From: a bacterium
Lineage (GTDB): Bacteria > Patescibacteriota > Minisyncoccia > Phycocordibacterales > UBA9973
Length of the DNA: 64,000 nucleotides
Reading direction: 5' to 3'
Assembly (NCBI GenBank): GCA_037127795.1
Contig: JBAXXQ010000001.1
Coordinates: 6,842-70,841 of the forward strand
Shown: in pieces, positions 31,496-59,054 of the stretch
How the letters are laid out: each line of letters starts with the position of its first letter
Numbering within the stretch: position 1 is the stretch's first letter
Notes under the pieces: model-generated
What the model was told of the DNA's origin: nothing
Seen by the model: only the letters and a program-made list of their open reading frames with translations
Database searches by the model: none
Program-made: the position numbers and the translations under genes

Positions 31496-32593
31496 ATGTT
31501 TACAAAACACACAAATAAATACTTTTCCAAAACAACCGGCACTATACTTTCTTTCGTACTTATATACAGTACGACCGGTATTCTTCTTGCAAAACAAATC
31601 ACCTCTTTCAGACACACAAACACTTCGCAAGTAAAAAACGAGGAGGTGTCTTTGCCACAAGTTGGCCACATCACAAATGAAAATACTATCGAGCCACTCG
31701 CCGCAACAAACGACAAACCAAGTATCAGCACATATACTGTTGTGACTGGTGACACACTCGCAAGTGTTGCAAAAAAATTCGACATCTCAGTCAACACTAT
31801 TTTGTGGGCAAACAATCTCTCTTCAAAATCTGCGCTCAAAGTAGGACAAAAACTTGTCATCCTCCCAGTGACCGGAATTACATATACAGTAAAAAAAGGT
31901 GACACACTCGGTAGTATTGCAAAAAAATTAAAAGCAGATCAATCAGAAATAATTTCTTTCAACGATCTCGGTGATGCAAAGTATATTAAGGTAGGAATGA
32001 AACTTGTGATCCCTGATGTAGAACCACAAATTCCAACAAAGACTCCAGAGAAAAAAGTAACAGAAAAAACACAACCTAAAAAATCAGAACCGAAAAAAAA
32101 TGAGACTCCGAGTGTTACTACTCAACAAGCAACAACTCCTTCACAAACTACTACTCCAACACAAGAGCTCGATGCACCCGCAGCACCAGCACCAAGCACT
32201 ACCCCACTCAAATCAACAACAGATTATTTTATTATGCCGATCCCTGGAAGCCACATCTCACAAGGACTTCACGGGTACAACTCTGTAGACTTTGGTGCAC
32301 CAACAGGAACACCTGTACTCGCAGCTGCAGATGGTATTGTGATCGTTGCAAAAAACGATAATGGCTTTGGTGGCGGCTATGGTAACTACATCGTAATCTC
32401 TCACCCCAATGGTACACAGACTCTCTACGCCCATCTTTCAAAAGTAGAAGTTGGTGTTGAAGATACTGTAAAGCAAGGTGCTGAAATTGGTAAGTGTGGG
32501 AGAACAGGGCGCGCTACTGGTCCTCACCTTCACTTCGAAGTTCGTGGTGGAGTGAACCCTTGGGTTGGTATGAAAGTCGGCACTAGTTTTTAA
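31496..32593 (+). CDS. LysM-domain M23-family metallopeptidase, a peptidoglycan hydrolase
   Basis: Two LysM repeats (YTVVTGDTLASVAKKF...; YTVKKGDTLGSIAKKL...), a Thr/Pro linker, and the M23 motifs HGYNSVDFGAP and GPHLHFEV. Confidence 0.85.
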   Translation: MFTKHTNKYFSKTTGTILSFVLIYSTTGILLAKQITSFRHTNTSQVKNEEVSLPQVGHITNENTIEPLAATNDKPSISTYTVVTGDTLASVAKKFDISVNTILWANNLSSKSALKVGQKLVILPVTGITYTVKKGDTLGSIAKKLKADQSEIISFNDLGDAKYIKVGMKLVIPDVEPQIPTKTPEKKVTEKTQPKKSEPKKNETPSVTTQQATTPSQTTTPTQELDAPAAPAPSTTPLKSTTDYFIMPIPGSHISQGLHGYNSVDFGAPTGTPVLAAADGIVIVAKNDNGFGGGYGNYIVISHPNGTQTLYAHLSKVEVGVEDTVKQGAEIGKCGRTGRATGPHLHFEVRGGVNPWVGMKVGTSF

Positions 32594-32644
32594 AAAAAAT
32601 ACGAAACAAAAAAAAAGAACCCGGAAGGGTTCTTGGTGTTTTAC

Positions 32645-33181
32645 TTAGTAGGTATCTACAATATACTCAACATCATCTAGTGTCTCAATATCGCCATACT
32701 CACTAGCATGCTCAGAAACTTTTTTGTTGATAGTTTCAGCAATCGTGATATCGTGATTGATACTCCTTACCATGTCGGCCACAGAAATCTCAAACACCTC
32801 TCTTTTGCCAGTGAATCTTTCAAAAAAGTCATCATGCTTGGTAAGCACTGTATCCCACCCTACTTGCACCATACCAGTACTTTTGATGATATATTCCATC
32901 CAAAAATAATGGTGCTTGGTACTAATAAGTGTGATGTACAAATACGCGAGATTCCCTTCTTCAGAATATTCTGTATTCCTATCTTCAAGCGCAACATCCA
33001 TAAGATCTGTATCTATAGCGAGATCGTTAGGAAAATCTTTTTCATCACGCCATTGTTTCAGATTACACAAACGATCTTTTACCACAGAAGACACTTTTAG
33101 ATACAGCGGAATTTTTTCATAATCCAAACCACAGAGTATACTAAGCAAAATTTCATTGTTTACAGTACTAGTACTATTCAT
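32645..33181 (-). CDS. Hypothetical protein
   Basis: A 178-aa ORF with no motif recognised. Confidence 0.4.
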   Translation of the reverse strand: MNSTSTVNNEILLSILCGLDYEKIPLYLKVSSVVKDRLCNLKQWRDEKDFPNDLAIDTDLMDVALEDRNTEYSEEGNLAYLYITLISTKHHYFWMEYIIKSTGMVQVGWDTVLTKHDDFFERFTGKREVFEISVADMVRSINHDITIAETINKKVSEHASEYGDIETLDDVEYIVDTY

Positions 33182-33216
33182 ATTTTATTTTTTTAAGAAT
33201 GAACAAATTTATTTTC

Positions 33217-33293
33217 ACTATCAACACACCATCAATTGATGAGCTGAACAATGAGGACACTTTTATACTTTTAAAGGCGTGTCCGTTTTCCTT
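33217..33293 (+). repeat. Copy 1 (A1) of a duplicated structured intergenic element
   Basis: The core cactatcaacacaccatcaattgatgagctgaacaatgaggac is followed by the hairpin ggacac...gtgtcc and a T-rich tail. A second copy lies at 33970-34048 with compensatory stem changes. Confidence 0.7.
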
Positions 33294-33442
33294 GAAGGTC
33301 TTAGCTTCTTGTATATGGTAGTAGTAATTATTTTATTAGGCACTACCTGATACCTAAATCACTTTTTCCATCCGAAGATGTACTTTCTGTTGCCAACCGG
33401 ATCTTCTATAGAAATAGAAGATGTGGTGATACCGGTCCGTTT

Positions 33443-33835
33443 CTACTCGTCTTCATCTTCACGCATAATATATGTAACATACTCATCAGCATGATAAAAA
33501 TAAATGAAGTGCTCATCCTCATACTTATAGAGCCACTCTTCTCCATCAATAAGAAAAAGTGGTTGTATGGCGTCGATTCTAAACCAATCAGTATTCTCAA
33601 CCTTCAAAATAATGGTTGCTCCAATACCTCTTCGTTGAATAGATCGATTAACCATCTCCGCAGTTATAGGAATTTGCCCAAGTCCTTTATATTCAAAACT
33701 TTCAAGAAAGTATAGATTTAAGCCGTACGTATCATCTACACTATCAGACTCTGAATATATAAAACATCGGCGACTAGATACTTCAAGATTTATACAGTCT
33801 TGCACTGCTTTACGGATTGTTTTAAATTGATCCAT
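33443..33835 (-). CDS. Acidic hypothetical protein bracketed by the A1 and A2 repeats
   Basis: A 130-aa ORF with an acidic C-terminus (EDEDE) and no motif. Confidence 0.4.
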   Translation of the reverse strand: MDQFKTIRKAVQDCINLEVSSRRCFIYSESDSVDDTYGLNLYFLESFEYKGLGQIPITAEMVNRSIQRRGIGATIILKVENTDWFRIDAIQPLFLIDGEEWLYKYEDEHFIYFYHADEYVTYIMREDEDE

Positions 33836-33969
33836 AAAAATTTCCCAGACAGCTGAATGCTGTTTTCCGTTCCTTGAAACGGGGTTTTATTAACTGGGTA
33901 ACGAGTTTCTTAAACTCTTTTTCGTTTTTAAAAGAACACTTATAGTGACTCACACTCAAGGATGTTTTT

Positions 33970-34048
33970 CACTATCAACACACCATCAATTGATGAGCTG
34001 AATAATGAGGACGATTTTACTACATAGGCTCGTCCATTTTCCTTTTTT
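33970..34048 (+). repeat. Copy 2 (A2) of the duplicated structured intergenic element
   Basis: The sequence cactatcaacacaccatcaattgatgagctgaataatgaggac is followed by the hairpin ggacga...tcgtcc and attttcctttttt. The stem differs from A1 by paired compensatory changes. Confidence 0.7.
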
Positions 34049-34214
34049 AATTTGAACTCTTATTTTTGTTATGAAAGATAAAAAATATATCAATCAGGTA
34101 ACACATAACCAAAACCCCTAATGTGAGAACTATAATAATCCCCACAGGATTACCTATTACTGCTTGAGTAATAAAAGTTAAGATAGCAAAAATAATGTTT
34201 CTTCTGTGTTTCAT
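34047..34214 (-). CDS. Small membrane protein, divergent partner of a TrmB gene
   Basis: About 55 aa from the ATG (MKHRRNIIFAILTFITQAVIG...) with two hydrophobic segments. The track ORF used an upstream TTG. Confidence 0.3.
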   Translation of the reverse strand: MKHRRNIIFAILTFITQAVIGNPVGIIIVLTLGVLVMCYLIDIFFIFHNKNKSSN

Positions 34215-34228
34215 TTTTTTAATTTTAG

Positions 34229-34261
34229 TGAACAAATGTTTTATCTGAGTACATCATAGCA
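34229..34261. repeat. Copy 1 (B1) of a conserved 33-nt intergenic element between a divergent small ORF and a TrmB gene
   Basis: The sequence tgaacaaatgttttatctgagtacatcatagca is identical 33 out of 33 to 35676-35708. Confidence 0.7.
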
Positions 34262-34372
34262 CCTTGTTTGATTTATGTCAAGTACATAGTCAATATATTT
34301 AGCACTATTTATCAACTTTAATATTATAAAATAAGGTTTATTTTATAAAAAAGAATATTTGTGTCAAAATTA

Positions 34373-34401
34373 TTGACATTTTATACCCTATTTTATATAC
34401 T
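34373..34401 (+). promoter_or_regulatory. Sigma-70-type promoter of the TrmB paralog. The predicted transcription start is at or next to the ATG, so the mRNA is leaderless.
   Basis: TTGACA, a 17-nt spacer, then TATACT ending 6 nt before the ATG at 34408. Confidence 0.55.
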
Positions 34402-34407
34402 TATTTT

Positions 34408-35160
34408 ATGGAAGACCAAATACAAGCACTTATTAAGATAGGACTTACAGACAAACAAGCTGTTGTCTACACCGCACTTCTTGAGCTTGGTGAAGCAAAA
34501 ATGACTCATATTGCCCGCCACGCAAAACTCAAACGTCCTACCGTATACCTTGTCATAGAAGAACTTATAGAGCTTGGACTAGTATCTCTCATAGAAAAAG
34601 GTAACAAGAAGATATATTCTTCAGTACACCCCAATCGTATTGCTGAGCTACTAGAATCACGCAAACAACAATACCAAGAGCTACTCCCCGACCTTCTCGC
34701 TCGATACGGATCTATCCGTGGTAAACCAAAAGTACAAATGCTCGAAGGTATACAAGGTATCAAGCAAGCATACCAAGAAGCCTACACACTACTTCTCGAA
34801 AATGAGAATGAGGGTTTGTGGTTTGGCAATATTTCTTTTCTCCTAAAGCACTTTCCCCAAGTAATTAAAGAATATAATATAGTATTAAACTCTTTAAAAA
34901 AATATAAGATTCGTGAAATAATTATAGGGGGTATAGAGAGTAAGCAGTGGGTAGAAAAAATGCAATCAAATCAAAAACCTAATCATCAAATAAAATATCT
35001 TGATGATAGTGAGCAATGCGGGATTACCGACCAATTCATAATAGGTAATAAAATTATACTTTTTTCTATGAATAAGGAATTGTTCACCCTTATAATAGAG
35101 AGCGAAGAGATTGTAAAAACTCAACGCTTTTTGTTTGAACAAATCTGGAAAAACAATTAA
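34408..35160 (+). CDS. TrmB-family transcriptional regulator, paralog 1
   Basis: 250 aa with an N-terminal winged HTH (LTDKQAVVYTALLELGEAKMTHIARHAKLKRPTVYLVIEELIELGLV) plus a C-terminal domain of TrmB length. Confidence 0.65.
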   Translation: MEDQIQALIKIGLTDKQAVVYTALLELGEAKMTHIARHAKLKRPTVYLVIEELIELGLVSLIEKGNKKIYSSVHPNRIAELLESRKQQYQELLPDLLARYGSIRGKPKVQMLEGIQGIKQAYQEAYTLLLENENEGLWFGNISFLLKHFPQVIKEYNIVLNSLKKYKIREIIIGGIESKQWVEKMQSNQKPNHQIKYLDDSEQCGITDQFIIGNKIILFSMNKELFTLIIESEEIVKTQRFLFEQIWKNN

Positions 35161-35292
35161 TATTTATATTTTAAATGAACATTTTCTGTTTCGCTCTTTT
35201 GAGCTCATCAGTCGAAATAATACATCTCGAGACAGAACGGAGCTTTTTCAAACTCCGTAGTTTGTGAACGATTTTATCTTTAGGATCATTCT

Positions 35293-35652
35293 TTACCCTC
35301 TTGAGTTTCTTAAAAAGGATAATATGTTTTCACCCTCAATGCTTGTACATTTTGAATTTATATATCTTTCACGTATATAACCTTCAGTATGTTTTGTGAT
35401 AGAAAAACCCGTAAGCTTTGAAATTGCTTTGAGACGACCCAAGTCGCACATACACCCACAATCACCTAAATTTTTTGTTTTCCTTGTAACAAATTCTTTA
35501 CATACCAATTGAAAATCTTTTTTATTTTTAACCATTAGGTATAAGGCTTTCTTAGATGGAGAACCTGTATCTCCCTTATCCTGAAAACCGATTTCGAGTA
35601 ATGAAAGATTGTCTGTTGCAACAAAAAACAAATTTAATAAATTTTTTTTCAT
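35293..35652 (-). CDS. Hypothetical Cys-containing protein, divergent partner of a TrmB gene
   Basis: A 119-aa ORF with a DCGCMCD cluster and no family recognised. Confidence 0.4.
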   Translation of the reverse strand: MKKNLLNLFFVATDNLSLLEIGFQDKGDTGSPSKKALYLMVKNKKDFQLVCKEFVTRKTKNLGDCGCMCDLGRLKAISKLTGFSITKHTEGYIRERYINSKCTSIEGENILSFLRNSRG

Positions 35653-35675
35653 ATGTGTAAGTTTTTTAATTTAAA

Positions 35676-35708
35676 TGAACAAATGTTTTATCTGAGTACA
35701 TCATAGCA
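35676..35708. repeat. Copy 2 (B2) of the conserved 33-nt intergenic element
   Basis: Identical to 34229-34261 and in the same position relative to the divergent gene pair. Confidence 0.7.
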
Positions 35709-35792
35709 GTTTTGTAAAGGTTTGTCAATATAACATCAAATAAATATTTGTAAATATATAAAAATATATTATAAAATATAGATAAAAAAGTG

Positions 35793-35821
35793 TTGACCAT
35801 ACTCCAACAACATGATATATT
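35793..35821 (+). promoter_or_regulatory. Sigma-70-type promoter of TrmB paralog 2. The mRNA is leaderless.
   Basis: TTGACC, a 17-nt spacer, then TATATT. The ATG at 35830 lies 8 nt downstream of the -10 element. Confidence 0.5.
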
Positions 35822-35829
35822 TATTATAT

Positions 35830-36597
35830 ATGATTGAACAATCGCTGCAAAAATTAGGGTTTTCTGAGAAAGAAATAGCTATATATCTATGTGTTCTAGA
35901 GCACGGCAAACTATCTGCGGCTATAGTAGCTCGTATCACAAAAATCAATAGAACAACTGTCTATAGTGTGACAAAAGAGCTTATTTCTAAAGGGTTTATT
36001 ATAGAAGATATAGGAGGGGTAAATCGCTACTATACCGCACTACAACCAAACGACATACCTGGATTATATAAAAAAGAAGAGCAATTACTCCAAGAAAAGA
36101 AAAAGATAGTAGATCAGGTAATACAAGAACTTGCCTCTATTCCAAAATCAAAAAGTTATTCAGTTCCCAAGATTCGCTTTATCGATGAATACCACTTAAA
36201 CGATTTCCTTCATACACAACTCCCTGTCTGGATAGAAAGTGCAAAATCTACAGACAAAAACTGGTGGGGCTTTCAAGATGTTTCTTTTATAGATACCTAT
36301 CCAGACTGGTACAAATACCATTGGGAGATTTTTCCCAAAGAATACGGCACAAGACTATTTACCAACCAAAAACCTTCTGAGGAAAAATTTGCAAAACATG
36401 TCTCTGACACAGAGCGTCGACAGATTAAGTATTGGTCAAAATCAAAAGACTTTACTGCAACACACGCCGTTCTTGGCGACTATGTATTGTTTTCTATCAC
36501 AAACCAAAGACCTCATTATGCCGTAGAAATACACGACGCTGTCATGGCGGAAAATATCCGAGAGATATTTAGGGGGTTATGGGAGGAAGTTAATTAA
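35830..36597 (+). CDS. TrmB-family transcriptional regulator, paralog 2
   Basis: Starts MIEQSLQKLGFSEKEIAIYLCVLEHGKLSAAIVARITKINRTTVYSVTKELISKGFI and is closely similar to 45861-46619 in the shared KINRTTVYSV, YSVPKIRFI, WWGFQD and EIHDAV motifs. The start was reset from the track ORF start at 35812. Confidence 0.7.
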   Translation: MIEQSLQKLGFSEKEIAIYLCVLEHGKLSAAIVARITKINRTTVYSVTKELISKGFIIEDIGGVNRYYTALQPNDIPGLYKKEEQLLQEKKKIVDQVIQELASIPKSKSYSVPKIRFIDEYHLNDFLHTQLPVWIESAKSTDKNWWGFQDVSFIDTYPDWYKYHWEIFPKEYGTRLFTNQKPSEEKFAKHVSDTERRQIKYWSKSKDFTATHAVLGDYVLFSITNQRPHYAVEIHDAVMAENIREIFRGLWEEVN

Positions 36598-38114
36598 TAC
36601 TCAATCTTTGGTCTATATTGCAATGCTTCGAGAATGTGACTTGTTTCTATAGTTGGAGATTTTTCGAGGTCGGCGATAGTGCGAGCGACTTTGATAGTAC
36701 GCATATATGCGCGCGGAGAGAGTTTCAATTTTGTCGCATAGTTTTGCAATTGTGTTTTTGCGTTTTGTGAAAGCTGCGACTTTTCTTGTACTTCCCGGCT
36801 CGAGAGGACGCTGTTTAATTTTCCTCGACTACTGTTTTGTATATCTTGTGTACGACATACCAATTCGCGCAATATAGGACTTTCTTTTGTTTCTACTTTT
36901 GTATGCAAATCTTCATATTCAACATGAGTCACTGGTACCCACAGATCGATACGGTCTATTATAGGACCTGAGAGTTTTTTACTATATCGCGCGAGCTCAT
37001 TTGCACTACACGTGCACTGCTTGATACTACTTCCTCTATATCCACACGGACATGGATTCATCGCGGCGAGTAATATGAAACGCGCTGGATATCGGATACT
37101 TCCTTTTGCACGAGCGACAGTGATAGATCCATCTTCGAGTGGTTCACGAAGCGCTTCTATCACTCGACGATCAAACTCTGGGAATTCATCCATATACAGT
37201 ACACCACGATGCGCCATAGTAATATCCCCTGGGCGAAGATTGGTCCCACCACCAATTATCGCAACATGACTTGCACTATGATGTGGCGCGCGAAACGGAC
37301 TCGCTCCGTGTAACACATCATCGATAAGTCCCACACTCGAATAAATAGTTGCAACCTCCAAAAAATGTTCTTCAGATAATTTGGGTAAAATAGAGTGAAA
37401 GCTTTTTGCAAGCATAGTCTTCCCTGTCCCTGGTGGTCCATAGAGTACTATGTTGTGCCCGCCAGCAGCCGCGATAGTAAGTGCACGTTTTGCATTCATC
37501 TGCCCACGAATATCTGCAAAATCTGTACCAGACTCTATTTCAAAAATACTTCTCGTGCGAGGTTTTTCTCTATCGACTATATTCACAGCACTTTCTTCAC
37601 CTTGTAAAAAATGCACCACATCTGCAAGGGTGGGTACGAGGTAACACTCGACACCGCTGACAAGCAAAGCTTCTTGTTCATTTCCTATTGGCATAAATAC
37701 TTTTTGTATACCCATCTTTTTTGCAAATTGTAAAATGGAAAGCATACCGCGTACCACTCGGACATCGCCATTAAGTCCAAGCTCTCCAACAAAAAGCATA
37801 CTACTCATATCGAGCGTGAGTACTTCTGTCGCAGCGAGATACCCTATCGCTATCGCCATATCAAAATACGCACCTTCTTTTTTGAGTTCTGCAGGCGAGA
37901 GCGACACTATCACTTTATGATTTTCTGCTTTTGGATTTTTGCCAAGAGAATTTCGTAACGCACTTATTACTCGCTCGCGCGCTTCTTCTACTGCTTTATC
38001 AGGAAGTCCTACAATTTGAAAAAGATATAACCCTCGAGAAATATCGGTCTCCACCACTACACTGGTTGCACCAAGTCCATGCATTTGCGCACTCTGTACT
38101 CGTGAAAACGCCAT
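36594..38114 (-). CDS. comM: YifB/ComM-family Mg-chelatase-like AAA+ ATPase
   Basis: 506 aa with the Lon-like N-terminal domain, Walker A YGPPGTGKTMLAKS and a C-terminal ChlI-like domain. Confidence 0.9.
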   Translation of the reverse strand: MAFSRVQSAQMHGLGATSVVVETDISRGLYLFQIVGLPDKAVEEARERVISALRNSLGKNPKAENHKVIVSLSPAELKKEGAYFDMAIAIGYLAATEVLTLDMSSMLFVGELGLNGDVRVVRGMLSILQFAKKMGIQKVFMPIGNEQEALLVSGVECYLVPTLADVVHFLQGEESAVNIVDREKPRTRSIFEIESGTDFADIRGQMNAKRALTIAAAGGHNIVLYGPPGTGKTMLAKSFHSILPKLSEEHFLEVATIYSSVGLIDDVLHGASPFRAPHHSASHVAIIGGGTNLRPGDITMAHRGVLYMDEFPEFDRRVIEALREPLEDGSITVARAKGSIRYPARFILLAAMNPCPCGYRGSSIKQCTCSANELARYSKKLSGPIIDRIDLWVPVTHVEYEDLHTKVETKESPILRELVCRTQDIQNSSRGKLNSVLSSREVQEKSQLSQNAKTQLQNYATKLKLSPRAYMRTIKVARTIADLEKSPTIETSHILEALQYRPKIEY

Positions 38115-45860: not shown

Positions 45861-46619
45861 TTATTTTTTCCAAAGCTCTTTGAATACTTCTCGCATATTA
45901 TGAGCAAGTACCGCATCATGTATTTCTACCAAATAATACGGCTTTTCTTTAGTAAGAACAGATACAACATATTCCCCTACGACCCACTGTGTACTTGTGA
46001 AGTTAGATTCTCCAGACCAAAATCGTATCATTCTTCTTGATATATCTTTTTCTTTCATTTGCACCTCTATATCAGAATCATTACTAAAAAGTTTCAAATC
46101 AATCTCTTGTGGTGCTTTTTTCCAAAACCAGTCTATCCATTTTTCATATTTTTCTGCAAATGTATGATCTTGGAACCCCCACCACGTCAACTCTTGTGTT
46201 GCACGTTGACTCTCTATCCATCGAGGAGTCGCCTCATGAAGATAATGCTCAAGATCACCCTCCTCTATGAATCTAATTTTTGGTACTGAGTACGCTGTCG
46301 AAGATGGAAAACTCTGCACAACCTCTTTCAAATCTTTAATTGTATGCTCTTTTTGAGCAATACGCTCTTTTTCTTTTATTATCAACCTATCAAGTTCACT
46401 TACTGGCGCTGGACTATAGTAAGTAGTCTTCCCTCCCAAATCTTCTACTATCAAACCTTTTTGTAGAAGCTCCTTTGCGACACTATATACAGTGGTACGA
46501 TTTATTTTTGCGAGGCGAGAAAGTGTTGTCGCAGGAACCTTTCCTTTCTCAAGAATAATCTTATATAAAGATTGCTCTTTTATTCCAAGTCCAAGATCTG
46601 TAAGTATTTTCTCCAACAT
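45861..46619 (-). CDS. TrmB-family transcriptional regulator, paralog 3
   Basis: Starts MLEKILTDLGLGIKEQSLYKIILEKGKVPATTLSRLAKINRTTVYSVAKELLQKGLI and is very similar to paralog 2. The start was set to 46619. Confidence 0.7.
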   Translation of the reverse strand: MLEKILTDLGLGIKEQSLYKIILEKGKVPATTLSRLAKINRTTVYSVAKELLQKGLIVEDLGGKTTYYSPAPVSELDRLIIKEKERIAQKEHTIKDLKEVVQSFPSSTAYSVPKIRFIEEGDLEHYLHEATPRWIESQRATQELTWWGFQDHTFAEKYEKWIDWFWKKAPQEIDLKLFSNDSDIEVQMKEKDISRRMIRFWSGESNFTSTQWVVGEYVVSVLTKEKPYYLVEIHDAVLAHNMREVFKELWKK

Positions 46620-46625
46620 ATCCTT

Positions 46626-46655
46626 ATTATACATAGTTTGTTGAAAAATTGTCAA
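46626..46655 (-). promoter_or_regulatory. Consensus sigma-70 promoter of TrmB paralog 3. The mRNA is leaderless.
   Basis: On the minus strand: TTGACA, an 18-nt spacer, then TATAAT, with the ATG 6 nt after the -10 element. Confidence 0.55.
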
Positions 46656-46715
46656 CAAAATATGTATAAAATCTTATTTAATGTTGATAATTAAGGTTTA
46701 TTTGTTTATATTTAC

Positions 46716-47261
46716 TTGACAAATAATTATATACCTGCTATGATTAACTTAAACAATTTTGTTAATTTAAAAAAATATATTATGAACAAGGTAACTATTC
46801 CAGTCCTTCCAGAAATTTTAACCAATCTTACTTGGGAAGATAAATATGACTCTATCTACAAATGGATTTCGAGTACACCTATAGGTAAAACCTATAGTCT
46901 ACGACTAAAAAGTTTCAAAGATTTTATAGAGTACTTAGAAGAAAAAGATACACGAGAGTATATTAGTAGTGTAGAGTACAGCGACAATTTTTTTGATTGT
47001 ATAGAAGATGGCAGATTATTTTCTATTCATTTTAAAGCTATTCCTTATGAAGATGGAGGTTGGGTTGATTTTGTTTTCTATTTTTATAGTAATAACAAAG
47101 TTACTACTAGAGTAGAGGCTGATTTTCCCGAAGATAGATTAAAGCATGTAGTCAATAACCATAAAAAAACAGGGTTTAAGGACGATACAAGTCTTACTTG
47201 GAAAAAAGCATTTCTTATTTTAAACAAGCTATATAATGGTAATATACCTGAGTTTGTTTAA
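46716..47261 (+). CDS. Hypothetical protein
   Basis: A 181-aa ORF with no motif. The start may be the internal MNKVTIPVL. Confidence 0.4.
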   Translation: MTNNYIPAMINLNNFVNLKKYIMNKVTIPVLPEILTNLTWEDKYDSIYKWISSTPIGKTYSLRLKSFKDFIEYLEEKDTREYISSVEYSDNFFDCIEDGRLFSIHFKAIPYEDGGWVDFVFYFYSNNKVTTRVEADFPEDRLKHVVNNHKKTGFKDDTSLTWKKAFLILNKLYNGNIPEFV

Positions 47262-47265
47262 AATA

Positions 47266-47296
47266 AGAAAAACCCTGCAAATGCAGGGTTTTTCTT
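47266..47296. terminator. Bidirectional terminator, copy 1 of a duplicated terminator sequence
   Basis: The sequence aaaccctgcaaatgcagggtttttcttatt has a 7-bp stem. Its core is identical to 48674-48704. Confidence 0.65.
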
Positions 47297-48089
47297 ATTG
47301 GTGGTGTGTAACACCCAATTCCCTATCCAGTCTTTTTGCTTCAGCCCAAGCGAGCTCGTAGATTTTTTTCATAGCATCAGCAATTTCTGCACTTTCTATA
47401 ATAATACCAAGCTTTTCTCGCCATGAAGCGATCATGATTTTATTATCATAGATATTTATTTCTGGGTGGAATCCATACCTATCAGACGGTATAAAAACAG
47501 AATCACGAAGCTCTGCTGTGTCATGCCTTGCGAGATCTCTCCCTTCGGCATTATCAGTAAAAATAGCACGTATTGGTATACCTTTTTCTGCACGACGCTT
47601 GTAGTACAAGGGAAAATATCCAGGGAGTGCCGCGTGTACATCATCGACACTCGCATATGCACGTATCGGCTCAAGAGAGCTCAACGTATCTTCATATACC
47701 TCCTTCAAACCTTCTACCCCCTCATAAAATCGTACTTGTGGGCGCCCCGCAACATTGTGCATTGATTTTAATGTAGGTATAACAGTGCGCACACGTACAA
47801 GCTCTTTTTGTAAAGATTCCAACTTACTAGAGATAAGTATATCGAGCTTGTCTGGTGATTCTGCAATATACTCTTGTTTTGGCTTCTTACCTGAAATACT
47901 AGCGAGCCCTTTTGACACCAATCTATCCAAAATATCATACCCTGTTGTTCTATTAAGGAGTGCTTTTCTAGAAATTTGTGAAACGGTACCTTTTCCAAGC
48001 CCCAAAAGCGCTATATACACAGCAAATTCATTATCAGAGATTCCTACAAGTTGTAGTTGTTTTTGTAATATATCAAGCTCTTTATCCAT
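47295..48089 (-). CDS. TrmB-family transcriptional regulator, paralog 4
   Basis: Starts LQLVGISDNEFAVYIALLGLGKGTVSQISRKALLNRTTGYDILDRLVSKGLA, a winged HTH, and has TrmB-like length. Confidence 0.65.
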   Translation of the reverse strand: MDKELDILQKQLQLVGISDNEFAVYIALLGLGKGTVSQISRKALLNRTTGYDILDRLVSKGLASISGKKPKQEYIAESPDKLDILISSKLESLQKELVRVRTVIPTLKSMHNVAGRPQVRFYEGVEGLKEVYEDTLSSLEPIRAYASVDDVHAALPGYFPLYYKRRAEKGIPIRAIFTDNAEGRDLARHDTAELRDSVFIPSDRYGFHPEINIYDNKIMIASWREKLGIIIESAEIADAMKKIYELAWAEAKRLDRELGVTHHQ

Positions 48090-48252
48090 ATCTACATGGT
48101 ATCATCTCTATATTTTGTGTCAACTGCTTCCCACAATTCTTATATTTATATATATAAATAAAAGGTTTTTATGCAAATACTACTTGACATATAATTGACT
48201 TTCTGCTATATTATATTTAAATTAATTCTTTCACAAAATAAAAACAACTAAA

Positions 48253-48672
48253 ATGAAATTTATTATTCAAGTTCTCGCACACACAATAGAGAATATTATC
48301 TTTTTTCTTCCAATTATTTGTATCAGCTTAAAATATGAAGACTTAATCAATGTCTTAATATGTGAGTTAGTATTAATTTACGGACTACCTATAACTGATA
48401 AATTAATCAATTATAAAAGAGATTATCCTGACTATGAAAGGGTTATAGCTAACAATTTAGGTGTAACATTAGCCTTTCTTGGTAATCTTTTTATAGCAAC
48501 TTTATTATGTCTAGGAAAATATAAAATTATAAAAGGATATCAATATTATATTCCTGGTTTTATAGATGATTTTTTCTCCAATAAAGATATTGCATTAAAG
48601 TTGGTGTCTATTGTGCTTGCATGGGTACTTACCTATTTAGCGTACAGAAAAGCAAAAGAAGAAGAATATTAA
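48253..48672 (+). CDS. Hypothetical multi-TM membrane protein
   Basis: 139 aa with three or four hydrophobic helices. Confidence 0.45.
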   Translation: MKFIIQVLAHTIENIIFFLPIICISLKYEDLINVLICELVLIYGLPITDKLINYKRDYPDYERVIANNLGVTLAFLGNLFIATLLCLGKYKIIKGYQYYIPGFIDDFFSNKDIALKLVSIVLAWVLTYLAYRKAKEEEY

Positions 48673-48673
48673 C

Positions 48674-48704
48674 CAAAAAACCCTGCAAATGCAGGGTTTT
48701 TCTT
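48674..48704. terminator. Bidirectional terminator, copy 2 of the duplicated terminator sequence
   Basis: The sequence aaaaccctgcaaatgcagggtttttcttatttttt is the same 25-nt core as at 47266. Confidence 0.65.
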
Positions 48705-50217
48705 ATTTTTTGGGTTTTCCGACACCGTGTTTCACATGTAACTGTTTTATTTCTGCGTCATTTACATCTTCTTTTTTCTCTTTCCCTTTCTCGCCGAGGA
48801 TTTTAAGATCCTTATCTTCGAGCTCTTCAAGGTCTTTTACCCTTTCTGAGAGCTGTTCCACAGTGTTTAATGCAGGGTTTTCTAGGACTTCTTCCAAAAG
48901 AACGTGTAAAATCCAGCCCATACGAGGTCCAGCTTTCACGTGTAACACTTCCATAAGATAGATACCGTCTATTGCCAATGCTGAAACAGATATAGGATCG
49001 CGAAGCGCTTCTTCTATCATTGCATGGTATTTGCGAAGTCTATATGGGGCTTCTACCTTTTTCATACCCACCCGATCACATTCGCGGACTTCCATAAGCT
49101 CCCAGATATGCTCCACACCAACCTTTTGAATAATACGGCGGACAGCAGAAAGAGTGATTTGCTCAGTATCTGAGAAAAACATATGATTTCTAACCAGTGA
49201 AACAACCAATTGCTCGGTAACACGATCAACTTTTAATCGATCCAAGATCTTTTTTGCCATACGAGCACCTACTACTTCATGTCCAAAAAACGTATATTTA
49301 TCCTTTTTTGCATCATACCTACGAGTTACAGGCTTGCCTATATCATGAAACAGAGCAGTAAGACGAATTTCACGACCAAACCCTTTATCAGCAGCATGCT
49401 GTAATGCGTGTAACAAATGACTATATACATCGTATATATGAGCACCTTTTTGCTCACAACCTACCCCTTCGAGAAGGTCAGGGATAATATATTTGAGCAA
49501 CCCTGTTCTATATAAGAGATCTACACCAAAAGCGGGAACGGGAGAATCTATTATCTTGAGGAATTCATCTCGAATACGCTCTACAGAAATGTTCGCAATA
49601 CGAGGAGAAAGATCTTCTATAGCAGATAGTGTTTCATGTGAAATAGAAAAACCTAGGGTTGTGGAAAACCTCACCGCGCGCAACATACGTAATGCATCCT
49701 CCATAAAGCGATCTGGCGCATAAAGGACACAACGCAATACTTTGTCGTTTATGTCGTTTTGTCCGTTATATGGGTCTATAAAATGTCGTTTATGTGGATC
49801 ATATGCTATGGCGTTGACTGTAAAGTCCCGACGAGCAAGGTCTTTTTGTATATCTGTTTCATATGTAACAGTATCTGGGTGGCGACTATCCGTATAATCA
49901 GATTCTGAACGATATGTGGTTATTTGGACATGAAACGTTTCATGTGGAACATTTTCTCTATCTGCAGCGTCTTTGGCCATATCAAATACAGTGACCGTAC
50001 CAAAAGTATTTTGGTATACCGTCTTGTATTGATGAAACACCTCTTCGATCTGTTCTGGTAAGGCATTGGTTGTAATATCCCAGTCTTTTGGACTTTTACC
50101 CAAGATACTATCTCGAACACAACCACCAACCAAATACGCCTCAAAACCTGCATCTTGAAGTATTTTAGTTACATGTGAAACAAAAACAGGGATGTTTTCT
50201 ATAGAAATAGATTGCAT
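48703..50217 (-). CDS. cca: CCA-adding tRNA nucleotidyltransferase with an HD domain
   Basis: Contains AYLVGGCVRDSILGKSPKDWDITT (the polymerase-beta head), the HD motif FHDIGKP and a K-rich C-terminus. Confidence 0.85.
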   Translation of the reverse strand: MQSISIENIPVFVSHVTKILQDAGFEAYLVGGCVRDSILGKSPKDWDITTNALPEQIEEVFHQYKTVYQNTFGTVTVFDMAKDAADRENVPHETFHVQITTYRSESDYTDSRHPDTVTYETDIQKDLARRDFTVNAIAYDPHKRHFIDPYNGQNDINDKVLRCVLYAPDRFMEDALRMLRAVRFSTTLGFSISHETLSAIEDLSPRIANISVERIRDEFLKIIDSPVPAFGVDLLYRTGLLKYIIPDLLEGVGCEQKGAHIYDVYSHLLHALQHAADKGFGREIRLTALFHDIGKPVTRRYDAKKDKYTFFGHEVVGARMAKKILDRLKVDRVTEQLVVSLVRNHMFFSDTEQITLSAVRRIIQKVGVEHIWELMEVRECDRVGMKKVEAPYRLRKYHAMIEEALRDPISVSALAIDGIYLMEVLHVKAGPRMGWILHVLLEEVLENPALNTVEQLSERVKDLEELEDKDLKILGEKGKEKKEDVNDAEIKQLHVKHGVGKPKK

Positions 50218-50256: not shown

Positions 50257-50327
50257 TGCGGCTACAGGGAATCGAACCCTGGTCTCGTCCTTGGCAAGGA
50301 CGCATTCTACCACTAAACCATAACCGC
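50257..50327 (-). tRNA. tRNA-Gly (anticodon GCC)
   Basis: Cloverleaf found by hand. The acceptor stem is GCGGTTA/TAGCCGC, the anticodon stem is CGTCC/GGACG, the loop is TTGCCAA and the T-loop is TTCGATT. No CCA is encoded. Confidence 0.8.
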
Positions 50328-50388
50328 AACAGAAATTAGTATAGATTATTTTTACTTTTTTGTAAATAAATGCTACATTTAGCGTACT

Positions 50389-50460
50389 GCACCTATGGTG
50401 AAATGGATATCACAGCGGTCTTCGGAACCGTTATTCTGGGTTCGAGTCCTGGTAGGTGCA
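50389..50460 (+). tRNA. tRNA-Arg (anticodon TCG)
   Basis: The acceptor stem is GCACCTA/TAGGTGC, the D-stem is GTGA/TCAC, the anticodon stem is GCGGT/ACCGT, the loop is CTTCGGA and the T-loop is TTCGAGT. The T-stem has two G-U pairs. Confidence 0.75.
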
Positions 50461-50470
50461 CAGCGTTTAG

Positions 50471-50498
50471 AAAAACATGCACTGCTGCATGTTTTTTA
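50471..50498 (+). terminator. Hairpin with a T-run downstream of tRNA-Arg
   Basis: The sequence aaaaacatgcactgctgcatgtttttt has the stem ACATGCA/TGCATGT. Confidence 0.55.
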
Positions 50499-50500
50499 GC

Positions 50501-50650
50501 TGTGCAAGGCGGAGACATGTCCGCAGGGCAGTCGAGCCGGGGTCGCGAACACTTTGCAGATTTCGAGCATTAGCGAAGAAATATGCTTAGTGATTTGTGA
50601 CCACAACAACCATCAGCTCCAGCAGGAGCGAGAGTCGAGTCCTATTTTCA
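50501..50650. other. Compact GC-rich segment with local hairpins, a candidate structured RNA of unknown identity
   Basis: Markedly higher G+C than the surrounding AT-rich DNA, with local stems such as gcgga/tccgc and agcat/atgct. There is no convincing ORF, and only a spurious track ORF overlaps the tRNA. It lies between the tRNA-Arg terminator and the yraN promoter region. Confidence 0.3.
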
Positions 50651-50817
50651 CATTATTAAAGACTTTATAACGCGCGTCTTTTACACCTGTCTTTTCTTGT
50701 CTTTTACGATATACTAATTATGTCCTAGAGTTTTCCCCTGTTTTTTACTCAAAAAAGTGCAAAACTGTGGATAACCCTGTGGGTATGTGGGATAAACGAC
50801 GACTTTTAGGGTCTTTT

Positions 50818-51177
50818 ATGAAGCAATTCACCTCAAAAACACAAAAGATTGGCGAATACGGAGAAGAACAAGCGGTGGTGTTTCTCATGAAACAAGGCTT
50901 TAGTATTGTAGATCGCAATGTATCAAACAAGTACGGAGAAATAGATATTATTGGGAAAAAGGGGAAAACATACTACTTTTTTGAAGTAAAAGCAGGGAAG
51001 TATGGTGGTTTTATAAATCCAGCAGAGAATCTTACCCCAGTGAAACTACGAAAATTCCTTATTTCTGTAGAGCATTATTGTTTCATACACAAAATCAAAG
51101 ATTATAGGGTGCAGGGTATTATCGTACTACTACAAGGTGAAAAAGTGTTTTCTGTAGAGTGTATTGATATATATTAA
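50818..51177 (+). CDS. yraN: YraN-family (UPF0102) predicted endonuclease
   Basis: The sequence GEYGEEQAVVFLMKQGFSIVDRNVSNKYGEIDIIGKKGKTYYFFEVKA matches the YraN consensus. The start was set to the internal MKQFTSK. Confidence 0.75.
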   Translation: MKQFTSKTQKIGEYGEEQAVVFLMKQGFSIVDRNVSNKYGEIDIIGKKGKTYYFFEVKAGKYGGFINPAENLTPVKLRKFLISVEHYCFIHKIKDYRVQGIIVLLQGEKVFSVECIDIY

Positions 51178-51220
51178 CAATTCTGGTACTATGGGCTGTA
51201 CAGCTATTTGAAAATTGAGT

Positions 51221-51293
51221 CGGGATGTAGTGTAACGGCTAACATTCCTGTTTTGGGAACAGGCGACTCCGGGTTCGAATCCCGGCATCCCGA
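51221..51293 (+). tRNA. tRNA-Pro (anticodon TGG)
   Basis: The acceptor stem is CGGGATG/CATCCCG, the anticodon stem is CCTGT/ACAGG, the loop is TTTGGGA and the T-arm is CCGGG TTCGAAT CCCGG. Confidence 0.85.
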
Positions 51294-51340
51294 CTCAGTT
51301 TTTAAATGTAGACTGTATATAGTAAAATAGATTATCCGTC

Positions 51341-51411
51341 GCGGGATTAGTTTATCGGTAAAATAACAGTTTTCCAAACTGTGGTGAAGGGTTCGACTCC
51401 CTTATCCCGCA
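51341..51411 (+). tRNA. tRNA-Gly (anticodon TCC)
   Basis: The acceptor stem is GCGGGAT/ATCCCGC, the anticodon stem is ACAGT/ACTGT, the loop is TTTCCAA and the T-arm is AAGGG TTCGACT CCCTT. On folding, positions 34-36 read TCC, so this is Gly rather than Trp-CCA. Confidence 0.7.
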
Positions 51412-51475
51412 CAATACAAAAAATACTCAGGTTTTCCTGGGTATTTTTTGTTATTTATTATGATAAACTATATTT

Positions 51476-52105
51476 ATGAAAAAACTTATTTTTATAGACC
51501 TAGACGGGACACTTACAGATGAATCTACTTGGCTTACACTTAATACCGCACTGGGAATTACAAAAGAAGAAGATGAATTGCTTTTTATTCAATATTTACA
51601 AAACGATATTGCATATGACGATTGGATAAAAAAACTTGTAGAAATACATACATCTCGGGGAAGTATTACAAAAACAGAACTAAAACTAATGGTGGAAAAT
51701 ATTCCTCTTAAAGAGGGGGTATTAGAAATGGTTCTAGATTTACACAGTAAAGGGTTTCATACAGTACTTCTTTCAGGATCTGTAGATTTTATCGTGGAAC
51801 AAATAGCTCAAAAAATTGGGATACGTGCATGGATGGCTTGCTCAAAACTTATTTTTAATGAAAATGAAACACTTATAGATATAATATCTGGTGGTGATGA
51901 AATATACAAAAAAGAAACTCTTGCTGAAAAATACATACAAGATAACGATTTTATGAACGCAGAGATATATGCACTAGGGGATGGAGCAAACGATATTGAG
52001 TTATTTAAAAAATATAAAGGAATACTTATTGGTAATAATAAACATCTAGAACCAATAACCTGGAAAAGTATACAAACACTACAGGAAATAAAAGATTTGA
52101 TATAA
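51476..52105 (+). CDS. HAD-IB family hydrolase (SerB-like)
   Basis: Contains LIFIDLDGTLTD (HAD motif I), LSGSVDF (motif II) and GDGANDIELF (motif IV). Confidence 0.8.
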   Translation: MKKLIFIDLDGTLTDESTWLTLNTALGITKEEDELLFIQYLQNDIAYDDWIKKLVEIHTSRGSITKTELKLMVENIPLKEGVLEMVLDLHSKGFHTVLLSGSVDFIVEQIAQKIGIRAWMACSKLIFNENETLIDIISGGDEIYKKETLAEKYIQDNDFMNAEIYALGDGANDIELFKKYKGILIGNNKHLEPITWKSIQTLQEIKDLI

Positions 52106-52118
52106 TATACCCACCACT

Positions 52119-59046: not shown

Positions 59047-59054
59047 GAGGGTAC

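What the first reader, a model, noticed from the sequence alone, without database searches (positions are those of the whole stretch)
33182..36600. Tandem duplicated module of divergent small ORF, identical 33-nt element and TrmB-family regulator with a leaderless promoter
Two adjacent units, 34047-35160 and 35293-36597, share the same layout. A small minus-strand ORF (a 55-aa two-TM protein and a 119-aa CxC protein respectively) starts about 15-25 nt from a conserved element that is identical 33 out of 33 (tgaacaaatgttttatctgagtacatcatagca, preceded by a similar ttttttaattt). Then comes a sigma-70 promoter (TTGACA/TTGACC at 17 nt from TATACT/TATATT), placed so that the TrmB gene ATG lies about 6-8 nt after the -10 element, which makes the mRNA leaderless. 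The partner ORFs differ while the regulatory scaffold is conserved. This looks like a modular regulator-plus-cargo cassette, with the 33-nt element as a candidate shared operator or 5' leader of the small genes.
Basis: seen in the sequence. Interest (0 to 1): 0.55.

Follow-up and report, generated by a model that had tools for sequence, protein, structure and literature searches.

The report
Shared promoter-leader of two TrmB divergons
The identical 33-base element is the core promoter and start of the untranslated leader of two small genes that sit back-to-back with two only distantly related TrmB-type regulator genes in a candidate-phyla-radiation bacterium; it was copied recently from one unit to the other, and part of it is a leader sequence that this lineage also uses after hammerhead ribozymes, one of which lies inside the region.

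Summary
The 33-mer occurs exactly twice in the window (34229-34261, 35676-35708; 0 expected by chance), and the layout and promoters are as described.

The interpretation needs correcting.
- **Not a recent tandem duplication.** The two regulators share 35% identity over the HTH only and belong to separate conserved families (called T1 and T2 here). The small ORFs are unrelated.
- **What the 33-mer is.** Read on the minus strand, it is the extended -10 (TGCTATGAT), the start region and the first ~25 nt of an unstructured A/U-rich leader. It belongs to a TTGACA-N17-TATGAT promoter driving the small genes.
- **Why it is identical.** Orthologous loci show that this leader evolves: 75-81% identity at ~80% protein identity. 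Unit 2 is a chimera of a T2-type promoter and a T1-type leader, joined in the shared -10. The perfect identity therefore reflects a recent intragenomic copy or gene conversion.
- **Better operator candidates.** These are family-specific palindromes over each regulator's own -35: GTCA-N7-TGAC in 25/25 T1 loci, and TGTTGA-N7-TCAACA in T2-type loci.
- **Leaderless starts** are supported, but they are the norm in this genome.

New: a type III hammerhead ribozyme lies at 35183-35237 (-). The leader's 3' half (UUGUUCAUUUAAA) also follows the hammerheads in the window, L041 and L093.

The region is a new member of known kinds, of moderate interest.

The parts
34229..34261 (-). 33-mer, copy 1. On the minus strand it reads TG-C-TATGAT (extended -10, 34261-34253), then the start region GUACUCAGA, then leader ...UAAAACAUUUGUUCA.
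35676..35708 (-). 33-mer, copy 2, with the same content. T2-type homology to L010 starts at 35698, inside the -10, so this is the chimera junction.
34215..34228 (-). A/U-rich end of leader 1 (CUAAAAUUAAAAAA), directly before the ATG of the 55-aa gene.
35653..35675 (-). End of leader 2 (UUUAAAUUAAAAAACUUACACAU), before the ATG of the 119-aa gene.
34276..34281 (-). -35 TTGACA of cargo promoter 1, 17 nt from TATGAT. It appears to arise from a 12-nt insertion relative to L006.
34288..34293 (-). TTGACT, homologous to the cargo -35 of T1 orthologs. It lies 69 nt from the T1 palindrome, as in all 25 T1 loci, and is a candidate second operator (GTCA-N7-TTTC type).
35723..35728 (-). -35 TTGACA of cargo promoter 2, of T2 type. 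It lies 62 nt from the T2 inverted repeat, as in L010, L011 and L012.
34047..34214 (-). Cargo 1: a 55-aa protein with two hydrophobic segments and no family match.
35293..35652 (-). Cargo 2: a 119-aa Cys-containing protein (DCGCMC). It has one homolog among 5.8 billion sequences (L093, 66%).
34363..34377 (.). T1 palindrome GTCAAAATTATTGAC, overlapping the -35 of the T1 promoter. It is the candidate autoregulatory operator.
34373..34401 (+). T1 promoter TTGACA-17-TATACT, with the ATG 6 nt after the -10 (leaderless).
34408..35160 (+). T1: a TrmB/TrmBL2-like regulator of 250 aa.
35791..35809 (.). T2 inverted repeat TGTTGACCATACTCCAACA over the -35 and spacer of the T2 promoter. It is a candidate operator. 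A perfect copy sits at the third paralog's promoter, 46639-46657.
35793..35821 (+). T2 promoter TTGACC-17-TATATT with TG extension, ATG 8 nt after the -10.
35830..36597 (+). T2: a TrmB-like regulator of 255 aa. The start at 35830 fits its orthologs.
35183..35237 (-). Type III hammerhead ribozyme: UUCUGUC|UCGAGAU-GUAUU-AUUUCGA-CUGAUGA-GCUC-AAAA-GAGC-GAAA-CAGAA. Predicted cleavage is between 35231 and 35230.
35237..35291 (-). Two hairpins 5' of the hammerhead (35266-35291 and 35237-35258), directly after the stop of the 119-aa gene. This stretch, running into the 5' part of the hammerhead, is 85% identical over 86 nt to L093.
35161..35182 (-). Orphan leader copy after the hammerhead (AAAUGUUCAUUUAAAAUAUAAAUA). 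It runs into the 3' end of T1 with no ORF behind it.
   Evidence: (D9)
33182..33211 (-). Degenerate copy of the leader (AAAUUUGUUCAUUCUUAAAAAAAUAAAAU-AUG), before the 178-aa gene.
   Evidence: (D13)
33215..33284 (-). Intergenic repeat D2, copy A. It forms two hairpins on the gene-sense strand, between the 130-aa and 178-aa genes.
33969..34035 (-). Intergenic repeat D2, copy B. The core is 94% identical, and hairpin 1 carries compensatory changes. It lies directly 3' of the 55-aa gene.

Best explanation
The region holds two neighbouring 'divergons' of a candidate-phyla-radiation bacterium (Paceibacteria). Each consists of a TrmB/TrmBL2-like regulator gene transcribed rightwards as a leaderless mRNA, and a divergent sigma-70 promoter (TTGACA-N14-TGCTATGAT) that drives a small lineage-specific 'cargo' gene leftwards through a 35-45 nt unstructured, A/U-rich, Shine-Dalgarno-less leader.

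The 33-mer is not a separate element. It is the extended -10, the start region and the first ~25 nt of that leader.

The two regulators are old paralogs from different families (T1 and T2). Each has its own palindrome over its own -35: GTCA-N7-TGAC for T1 and TGTTGA-N7-TCAACA for T2. Each palindrome sits at a fixed distance (69-70 nt and 62 nt) from the cargo -35. These palindromes are the likely operators, through which the regulator represses itself and controls the cargo promoter. This step is inferred.

The perfect identity of the 33-mer comes from a recent intragenomic copy or gene conversion. That event placed a T1-type leader behind the T2-type promoter, with the crossover in the -10 sequence CATCATAGCA that both types share.

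The 3' half of the leader (UUGUUCAUUUAAA...) is a leader module of this lineage. It also follows type III hammerhead ribozymes that cut polycistronic RNAs between genes. One such hammerhead, preceded by two hairpins, ends the cargo-2 transcript at 35183-35291 (-).
For: **Promoter reading.** The minus-strand promoter TTGACA-17-TATGAT with TG extension is found at both copies, 11/12 matches each. All four TrmB paralogs in the window have a divergent TTGACA-N14-TGCTAT(G/A)(A/T)T. The leader RNA is unstructured (z = +0.8).

**Old paralogs.**
- The proteins are 35% identical over 86 aa only.
- They belong to separate families, with 126 and 545 homologs.
- The T1 model matches TrmBL2 at E = 4e-13 and TrmB at 2e-9 over its full length.

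**Operators.**
- GTCA-N7-TGAC is present in 25/25 T1 loci, 29-32 nt from the ATG and 69-70 nt from the cargo -35.
- The T2 inverted repeat sits 62 nt from the cargo -35 in the window and three orthologs.
- A perfect copy sits at the promoter of the T2-like third paralog.

**Recent copy (segment identities).**
- Unit 1 vs unit 2 leader block: 45/47.
- Rest of the two intergenic regions: 60%. The two genes: 52% at DNA level.
- Unit 2 vs its ortholog L010: 86-89% from 35698 to the ATG, but 75% with a 20-nt indel in the leader.
- Unit 1 vs its ortholog L006 leader: 81%.

**Leader module.**
- GTTCAYTWAAA occurs 8 times in about 570 kb. All are on the gene-sense strand, and 7 lie within about 35 nt upstream of a start codon.
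- The motif follows hammerheads in the window, L041 and L093.
- A second leader type (AUUCUUUCA) is shared between the fourth paralog's cargo leader in the window and the post-hammerhead leaders of L040 and L094.

**Hammerhead.**
- Rfam Hammerhead_3 scores 41.9 bits, E = 9e-7, over the full model.
- Eight other copies were found in six loci: L040 (two), L041, L028, L093, L094 and L095 (the last two carry the same protein and score identically). Four sequences were aligned; 96.9% of cells pair and 9 pairs show compensatory changes.

**Leaderless starts as the norm.** A -10 hexamer peaks exactly 6 nt before starts (13/60 genes; 19/60 within 5-8 nt), and SD-like motifs occur in 5/60.
Against: - No transcript, binding or cleavage data exist. 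Start sites, operators and ribozyme activity are all inferred from sequence and comparison.
- The direction and mechanism of the copy (gene conversion or cassette replacement) cannot be resolved from one genome.
- A leader under very strong selection in this particular genome cannot be strictly excluded.
- The specific role of the UUGUUCAU motif is unknown.
- The hammerheads all score just below Rfam's gathering threshold (39-48 vs 48.5 bits).
- The T1 palindrome coincides with two back-to-back -35 hexamers, so part of its conservation could reflect promoter function rather than regulator binding.
Confidence: 0.7

Rival explanations
1. The 33-mer is a shared operator, or a site for an RNA-binding factor. 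One regulator (T1, T2 or a third factor) binds it at +1 to +25 of both cargo promoters, and its perfect identity is maintained by selection for co-regulation of the two small genes.
For: The element is perfectly conserved between units whose other parts have diverged. It sits where a repressor could block RNA polymerase. Part of it (AATGAACAAT) recurs in the cargo leaders of several T1 loci (L029, L030, L040, L036, L027).
Against: - The element has no dyad symmetry (inspection).
- The motif is absent from the leaders of close T1 orthologs (L024 and L094, 79-80% identity) while the palindrome is kept in all.
- The same motif follows hammerheads where no promoter was noted.
- T1 and T2 have different HTH sequences and different invariant palindromes.
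- Ortholog-level conservation of the leader is only 75-81%.
Confidence: 0.12
2. The shared leader acts as the homology patch through which cargo genes are exchanged. Recombination between leader copies behind TrmB promoters, behind hammerheads and behind D2 elements swaps small-gene cassettes. Unit 2 acquired its 119-aa gene together with the hairpin-hammerhead-leader element in this way.
For: - Cargo genes differ in every ortholog while the regulator and promoter are kept.
- The same chromosomal slot (LysM/M23 ... DksA) holds T1, T2 or both in different genomes.
- The unit-2 chimera junction lies in the -10.
- The only homolog of the 119-aa gene sits in a hammerhead-leader-driven operon in L093.
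- An orphan leader abuts the 3' end of T1 at 35161-35182.
Against: The homology is only about 25-47 nt, which is short for efficient RecA recombination. No recombinase is linked; the nearby integrase is a conserved syntenic Xer-like gene. Only one junction has been seen, so the pattern could be ordinary rearrangement in a variable region.
Confidence: 0.13
3. An old tandem duplication of a whole regulator-plus-cargo unit, with the 33-mer as the only part left unchanged.
For: The two units have the same layout and the same orientation.
Against: - The regulators fall into two families, each conserved at 50-80% across many genomes, so the split is ancient.
- An element that changes by 19-25% between species cannot stay 33/33 across that time.
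- T2 orthologs carry a different leader with a hairpin insert.
Confidence: 0.03
4. An assembly artefact, in which a collapsed or chimeric repeat creates the second copy.
For: None specific.
Against: A separately deposited 3930-nt assembly record (L001) is identical over 31990-35919, including both copies. Another record (L002) covers T1 and the hammerhead core. The flanks of each copy match different orthologous loci.
Confidence: 0.02

Closest known systems
TrmB / TrmBL2 family regulators of Thermococcales (PDB 3qph, 5bpd)
   Same: N-terminal winged HTH (PF01978), a long helix, then a PLD-like C-terminal domain. The T1 model matches TrmBL2 at E = 4e-13 and TrmB at 2e-9 over its full length. 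The size of 250-255 aa is close to TrmBL2 (about 260 aa).
   Different: These are bacterial (Paceibacteria) proteins with 15-19% sequence identity to the solved structures, and they lack the extra C-terminal region of the 335-aa TrmB chain. No ligand is known. The candidate operators (GTCA-N7-TGAC, TGTTGA-N7-TCAACA) differ from the archaeal TrmB motifs as I recall them (own knowledge). Four paralogs occur within 64 kb.
Autoregulated divergent regulator-target gene pairs ('divergons', e.g. MarR- or LysR-type; established knowledge)
   Same: The regulator and target are transcribed back-to-back from one intergenic region, with a palindrome over the regulator's own -35 and fixed spacing between the two promoters.
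   Different: The target genes are replaced freely between genomes while the regulator and control region are kept. The regulator mRNA is leaderless, whereas the target has a conserved SD-less leader.
Hammerhead ribozymes flanking genes in bacterial or prophage polycistronic RNAs (Perreault et al. 2011, PMC3088659; Rfam RF00008)
   Same: A type III hammerhead with the complete catalytic core lies between cistrons, and in some loci several flank single small genes (L040, and probably L028).
   Different: These copies are in CPR genomes with no prophage context noted. All score below Rfam's gathering threshold. They are preceded by one or two hairpins (a conserved pair in the window, L093 and L094) and followed by a leader that is also used behind sigma-70 promoters. 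In 5 of the 9 copies found, the hammerhead follows the cargo of a TrmB divergon.
Leaderless mRNAs of bacteria such as Actinobacteria and Deinococcus (established knowledge)
   Same: A -10 hexamer lies 6-8 nt before the start codon, with no SD sequence.
   Different: None in principle. The point here is that this is the default for this genome, so it is not a feature specific to the TrmB genes.

Membership tests
TrmB family transcriptional regulator | N-terminal TrmB-type winged helix-turn-helix (PF01978) | tested here: met
   E = 4.1e-15 (T1) and 4.9e-15 (T2), both above the curated cut-off. The third and fourth paralogs in the window also match.
TrmB family transcriptional regulator | Full-length architecture: wHTH, long dimerisation helix, PLD-like effector-domain core | tested here: met
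   The T1 model has mean pLDDT 86. Foldseek top hits are TrmBL2 5bpd (E = 4e-13, ~270 aligned columns) and TrmB 3qph (2e-9). The C-terminal domain matches NucT (PLD fold) at 5e-6. T2 was not modelled.
TrmB family transcriptional regulator | Sugar ligand binding and sugar-responsive DNA binding | not testable with these tools
   At 250 aa the protein is shorter than the 335-aa TrmB chain and close to TrmBL2 in length. NCBIfam equivalog scores are far below their cut-offs.
Tandem segmental duplication | All parts of the two units are paralogous at a comparable level of divergence | tested here: not met
   The regulators are 35% identical over the HTH only, and no similarity between the two cargo proteins was noted. 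Intergenic identity is 60% outside the block and 45/47 inside it. The two cargo ORFs were not compared directly.
Sigma-70 promoter (cargo, minus strand) | -35 and -10 hexamers at 16-18 nt, kept in relatives | tested here: met
   TTGACA-17-TATGAT with TG at both copies. The same architecture appears in T1, T2 and the two further paralogs' loci. The transcription start has not been mapped.
Leaderless mRNA (TrmB genes) | -10 hexamer ending 5-8 nt before the start codon, conserved in orthologs | tested here: met
   The gap is 6 nt (T1) and 8 nt (T2). The palindrome-to-ATG distance is 29-32 nt in 25 T1 loci. Three of four T2-type loci show 6-8 nt. The genome-wide peak is at 6 nt.
Operator of a dimeric wHTH regulator (claim made for the 33-mer) | Dyad symmetry and co-conservation with the regulator | tested here: not met
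   The 33-mer has no dyad. The motif is patchy among T1 orthologs. The palindromes at 34363-34377 and 35791-35809 do meet both criteria.
Hammerhead ribozyme, type III (RF00008) | Catalytic core CUGAUGA ... GAAA ... and a UH cleavage site | tested here: met
   All core nucleotides are present, with GUC at the cleavage site.
Hammerhead ribozyme, type III (RF00008) | Three helices supported by covariation | tested here: met
   96.9% of cells pair. Nine of 16 pairs show changes on both sides, and 0/500 shuffles reach this. Slid controls pair at 31-44%.
Hammerhead ribozyme, type III (RF00008) | Score at or above Rfam's gathering threshold (48.5 bits) | tested here: not met
   The window copy scores 41.9 bits (E = 9e-7). 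Relatives score 39-48 bits. E-values and covariation support membership despite this.
Hammerhead ribozyme, type III (RF00008) | Self-cleavage | not testable with these tools
   This needs in vitro transcription.

The most novel reading that the evidence does not exclude
In this Paceibacteria lineage a short conserved leader (UUGUUCAUUUAAAWU... or AUUCUUUCA...) works as a universal 'socket' for small-gene cassettes. It sits behind TrmB-controlled promoters, behind hammerhead ribozymes and behind the D2 twin-hairpin element. Recombination between its copies moves cargo genes from one expression context to another. That would make TrmB divergons plus ribozyme-punctuated arrays an integron-like gene-shuffling system without a dedicated integrase.
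Probability: 0.12. Interest if true: 0.7.

Novelty: new member of a known kind. Interest (0 to 1): 0.42.

Why it matters
Almost nothing is known about gene regulation in candidate-phyla-radiation bacteria. I found no paper in the searched library that links TrmB or hammerheads with Patescibacteria.

This locus and its relatives give a testable picture of regulation in these organisms:
- An abundant family of TrmBL2-like regulators, four within 64 kb.
- Invariant family-specific palindromes that can be tested directly as operators.
- Rigid promoter geometry.
- Leaderless regulators paired with leadered, freely replaced small genes.
- Hammerhead ribozymes that appear to cut operons into single-gene RNAs and fall just below the Rfam annotation threshold.

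There is also a methodological lesson. A perfectly identical intergenic block between diverged paralogs pointed to recent conversion, not to an operator.

Tried and rejected
1. **Widespread repeat.** A scan of 185,579 species genomes with TGAACWAATGTTTTATCTG gave 11 single hits in unrelated taxa, which is about chance level. The source genome is apparently not in that set, so copies elsewhere in its 580-kb contig could not be counted.
2. **Plus-strand mini-ORF.** MNKCFI in the 33-mer and MNKFIFTINTPSIDELNNED at 33199 are not conserved as ORFs in relatives: L006 reads MN*, and L029 and L030 differ. Rejected.
3. **Leader as an RBS, or UUG as the true start.** The spacing to the ATG varies from 4 to 23 nt, and the frame is inconsistent between copies. 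Rejected.
4. **Archaeal TrmB motifs** (TACT-N7-8-GAGT type, recalled from memory). Only a GAGTAC half-site is present. Not supported.
5. **D2 repeat as a degenerate hammerhead.** There is local similarity to CUGAUGAGCU, but no hit with Rfam at E <= 1 or with the lineage-specific model, filters off. Rejected as a hammerhead. It folds as two hairpins on the gene-sense strand.
6. **The 178-aa and 130-aa proteins as paralogs.** No similarity.
7. **Cargo function.** Pfam, NCBIfam and PADLOC give nothing for any cargo protein. The 119-aa protein has one homolog in 5.8 billion sequences.
8. **PDB sequence search.** It gave nothing for T1 and only HTH-level hits for T2, so a fold search was needed.
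9. **Further regulon members.** The T1 palindrome has no other copy in the window.

Full report
**1. Observation**

The 33-mer TGAACAAATGTTTTATCTGAGTACATCATAGCA occurs at 34229-34261 and 35676-35708. It appears nowhere else in the 64-kb window within 3 mismatches, or within 12 on the + strand. Shuffles expect zero matches. The conserved block is 45/47 over 34215-34261 and 35662-35708, followed 14 nt later by TGTCAA in both units.

L001, a separately deposited 3930-nt record, is identical across both copies.

**2. What the 33-mer is**

On the minus strand both copies form TTGACA-17-TATGAT with a TG extension, the best promoter matches in the region (11/12). The 33-mer therefore contains three things for the small minus-strand genes:
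- the extended -10 (TGCTATGAT);
- the expected start region;
- the first ~25 nt of the 5' leader.

The leader RNA is unstructured (z = +0.8) and A/U-rich, and it has no Shine-Dalgarno sequence.

The window holds two further TrmB paralogs, at 45864-46619 and about 47346-48071, both on the minus strand. Each of them also faces a divergent TTGACA-N14-TGCTAT(G/A)(A/T)T promoter with a 35-45 nt A/U-rich leader. This is a recurring architecture in the genome, not a property of these two units alone.

**3. The regulators**

T1 (34408-35160) and T2 (35830-36597) are 35% identical over 86 residues of the HTH and cannot be aligned beyond that. Each belongs to its own family in Paceibacteria metagenomes:
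- T1: 126 homologs, 50-83% identical.
- T2: 545 homologs.

A T1 model (mean pLDDT 86) matches TrmBL2 (E = 4e-13) and TrmB (2e-9) over its full length. Its C-terminal domain has the PLD-like fold. These are TrmBL2-like proteins, and the split between T1 and T2 is ancient.

**4. Comparative footprint**

In 25 T1 loci:
- The palindrome GTCA-N7-TGAC is invariant.
- It overlaps the regulator's own -35.
- It lies 29-32 nt from the ATG.
- It lies 69-70 nt from the cargo -35.

A -10-like hexamer ends mostly 6-7 nt before the ATG in the T1 loci inspected. Four T2-type loci keep TGTTGA-N7-TCAACA over the -35 and spacer, 62 nt from the cargo -35. A perfect copy sits at the promoter of the T2-like third paralog.

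These palindromes are the natural operator candidates, though binding is inferred. The 33-mer has no dyad symmetry and is not co-conserved with T1. Close orthologs (L024 and L094, 79-80% identity) lack its leader motif, while more distant ones (L029, L030, L040) have it.

**5. Why the identity is perfect**

Segment identities:

| Comparison | Identity |
|---|---|
| Unit 1 vs unit 2, leader block | 45/47 |
| Unit 1 vs unit 2, rest of intergenic region | 60% |
| Unit 1 vs unit 2, regulator genes (DNA) | 52% |
| Unit 2 vs T2 ortholog L010, 35698 to the ATG | 86-89% |
| Unit 2 vs L010, leader | 75%, with a 20-nt hairpin insert in L010 |
| Unit 1 vs T1 ortholog L006, leader | 81% |
| Unit 2 leader vs L006, 33 nt | 94% |

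Unit 2 is thus a chimera of a T2-type promoter and a T1-type leader. The junction lies in CATCATAGCA, the -10 sequence that both types share. A leader that changes by 19-25% between species cannot have stayed 33/33 since T1 and T2 split. A recent intragenomic copy or gene conversion is the simplest account.

**6. Cargo and synteny**

The divergent partner differs in almost every genome. Partners include:
- small membrane proteins and Zn-ribbon proteins;
- a cupin plus a methyltransferase;
- an ABC transporter;
- a PALP enzyme;
- proteins of unknown family.

The slot between the LysM/M23 gene and the DksA-like gene holds T2 alone in L010. A T1 ortholog sits directly upstream of the same DksA-like gene block in L006, although that locus does not reach the LysM/M23 gene. 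Both regulators occupy the slot in the window. No cargo protein here matches any family.

**7. Hammerhead and the leader module**

Rfam finds a full-length type III hammerhead at 35183-35238 (-), scoring 41.9 bits with E = 9e-7. All core nucleotides and a GUC cleavage site are present.

Eight further copies were found in six other loci: L040 (two), L041, L028, L093, L094 and L095. L094 and L095 carry the same T1 protein and score identically, so they may be one sequence seen twice. On the four-sequence alignment, 96.9% of cells pair and 9 of 16 pairs show compensatory changes. All copies score 39-48 bits, just under Rfam's gathering threshold of 48.5.

In the window the ribozyme follows the 119-aa cargo gene after two hairpins. 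In L040 (one of its two copies), L041 and L094/L095 it follows the cargo of a T1 gene. The second L040 copy follows an ORF divergent from another TrmB paralog.

The sequence just after the ribozyme is the 3' half of the 33-mer leader:
- Window: CAGAAAAUGUUCAUUUAAAAU.
- L041: CAGAUUGUUCAUUUAAAAUUUAAUAAC-AUG.
- L093: AAAUUGUUCAUUAAAAAAUUUAAAAC-AUG.

GTTCAYTWAAA occurs 8 times in about 570 kb. All eight are in the gene-sense orientation, and seven lie within about 35 nt upstream of a start codon. The eighth, at 35161-35182, is an orphan that abuts the 3' end of T1.

Hammerheads that flank genes in bacterial polycistronic RNAs are known (PMC3088659). The most likely role here is to cut transcripts into separately stable RNAs, with hairpins protecting the upstream 3' end. 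This role is inferred.

**8. Leaderless starts**

Among 60 long ORFs in the window:
- A -10-like hexamer peaks exactly 6 nt before the start in 13 genes, and lies within 5-8 nt in 19.
- Only 5 have an SD-like motif.

The leaderless TrmB promoters are real but ordinary for this organism. The unusual genes are the cargo genes, which carry a leader.

**9. Verdict**

The element is a promoter-plus-leader that was recently homogenised between two old TrmB divergons. It is not a relic of a tandem duplication, and it is probably not an operator.

The added findings are a hammerhead ribozyme, a leader shared with ribozyme-processed cistrons, invariant operator candidates, and four TrmB paralogs within 64 kb. 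These raise the value for CPR biology, but each piece belongs to a known kind.

Noticed in passing
window 35183-35237 (-): A complete type III hammerhead ribozyme, preceded by two hairpins (35237-35291), lies 3' of the 119-aa gene. It scores below Rfam's gathering threshold (41.9 vs 48.5 bits), so automatic annotation would miss it.
   Followed up: yes
window 33212-33290 and 33966-34044 (-): An intergenic repeat (D2) has a 54-nt core at 94% identity, containing the palindrome CATCAATTGATG, plus a hairpin with compensatory changes. It folds as two hairpins on the gene-sense strand (z = -2.6 and -3.6). It sits where other loci have hairpin 2 plus the hammerhead. There is no Rfam match and no copy in about 90 related loci.
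   Followed up: partly
window D2-A, D2-B, 35266-35291; L093 15-50; L094 ~7150-7190 (-): The first hairpin of these intergenic elements has a variable, compensating stem and a conserved loop, (A)GCCUA...GUAAAAU, preceded by GGAAAA. This is a possible small RNA motif. It was seen by eye only.
   Followed up: no
window 45864-48672: A second tandem pair of TrmB divergons: the third paralog (45864-46619, -) with a divergent + gene from about 46720, and the fourth (about 47346-48071, -) with a divergent + gene at 48253-48672. A perfect TGTTGA-N7-TCAACA palindrome at 46639-46657 overlaps the third paralog's -35.
   Followed up: partly
whole window: The genome is largely leaderless and SD-less. A -10 hexamer peaks 6 nt before start codons (13/60 genes), SD-like motifs occur in 5/60, and internal genes are preceded by AAUAAUAU-like A/U-rich stretches.
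   Followed up: partly
L028 2330-2680 (+): An apparent tandem array of hairpin 1, hairpin 2, hammerhead, leader and a 47-aa membrane ORF. The hairpins begin again at the contig end, suggesting ribozyme-punctuated small-gene cassettes.
   Followed up: no
L010 5869-5890, L011 equivalent: The T2-type cargo leader in front of a PALP enzyme gene contains a conserved hairpin (AAUGGAUGAGCUCACCAUU) with a compensatory change in L011. The window's unit 2 lacks it.
   Followed up: no
L007 592-6762; L036 776-4741; L040 3959-7785: Other genomes also carry two or three TrmB paralogs in a row, each with a divergent partner (an ABC ATPase, a haem-oxygenase-like protein, and a cupin plus methyltransferase in L007).
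   Followed up: no
window 34276-34293: Relative to L006, unit 1 has a 12-nt insertion (ATGTACTTGACA). It creates a new TTGACA at the correct 17-nt spacing, while the ancestral site (TTGACT) stays 69 nt from the T1 palindrome.
   Followed up: partly
window 47249-47334, 48677-48774, 59023-59111: Weak Rfam hits (BSnc120, RsmY; far below threshold). The one inspected, at 47262-47297, coincides with a G+C-rich terminator-like hairpin after a cargo gene (AAAAACCCTGCAAATGCAGGGTTTTTC). They are probably not real family members.
   Followed up: no
window 50257-52189: A cluster of five tRNA genes.
   Followed up: no
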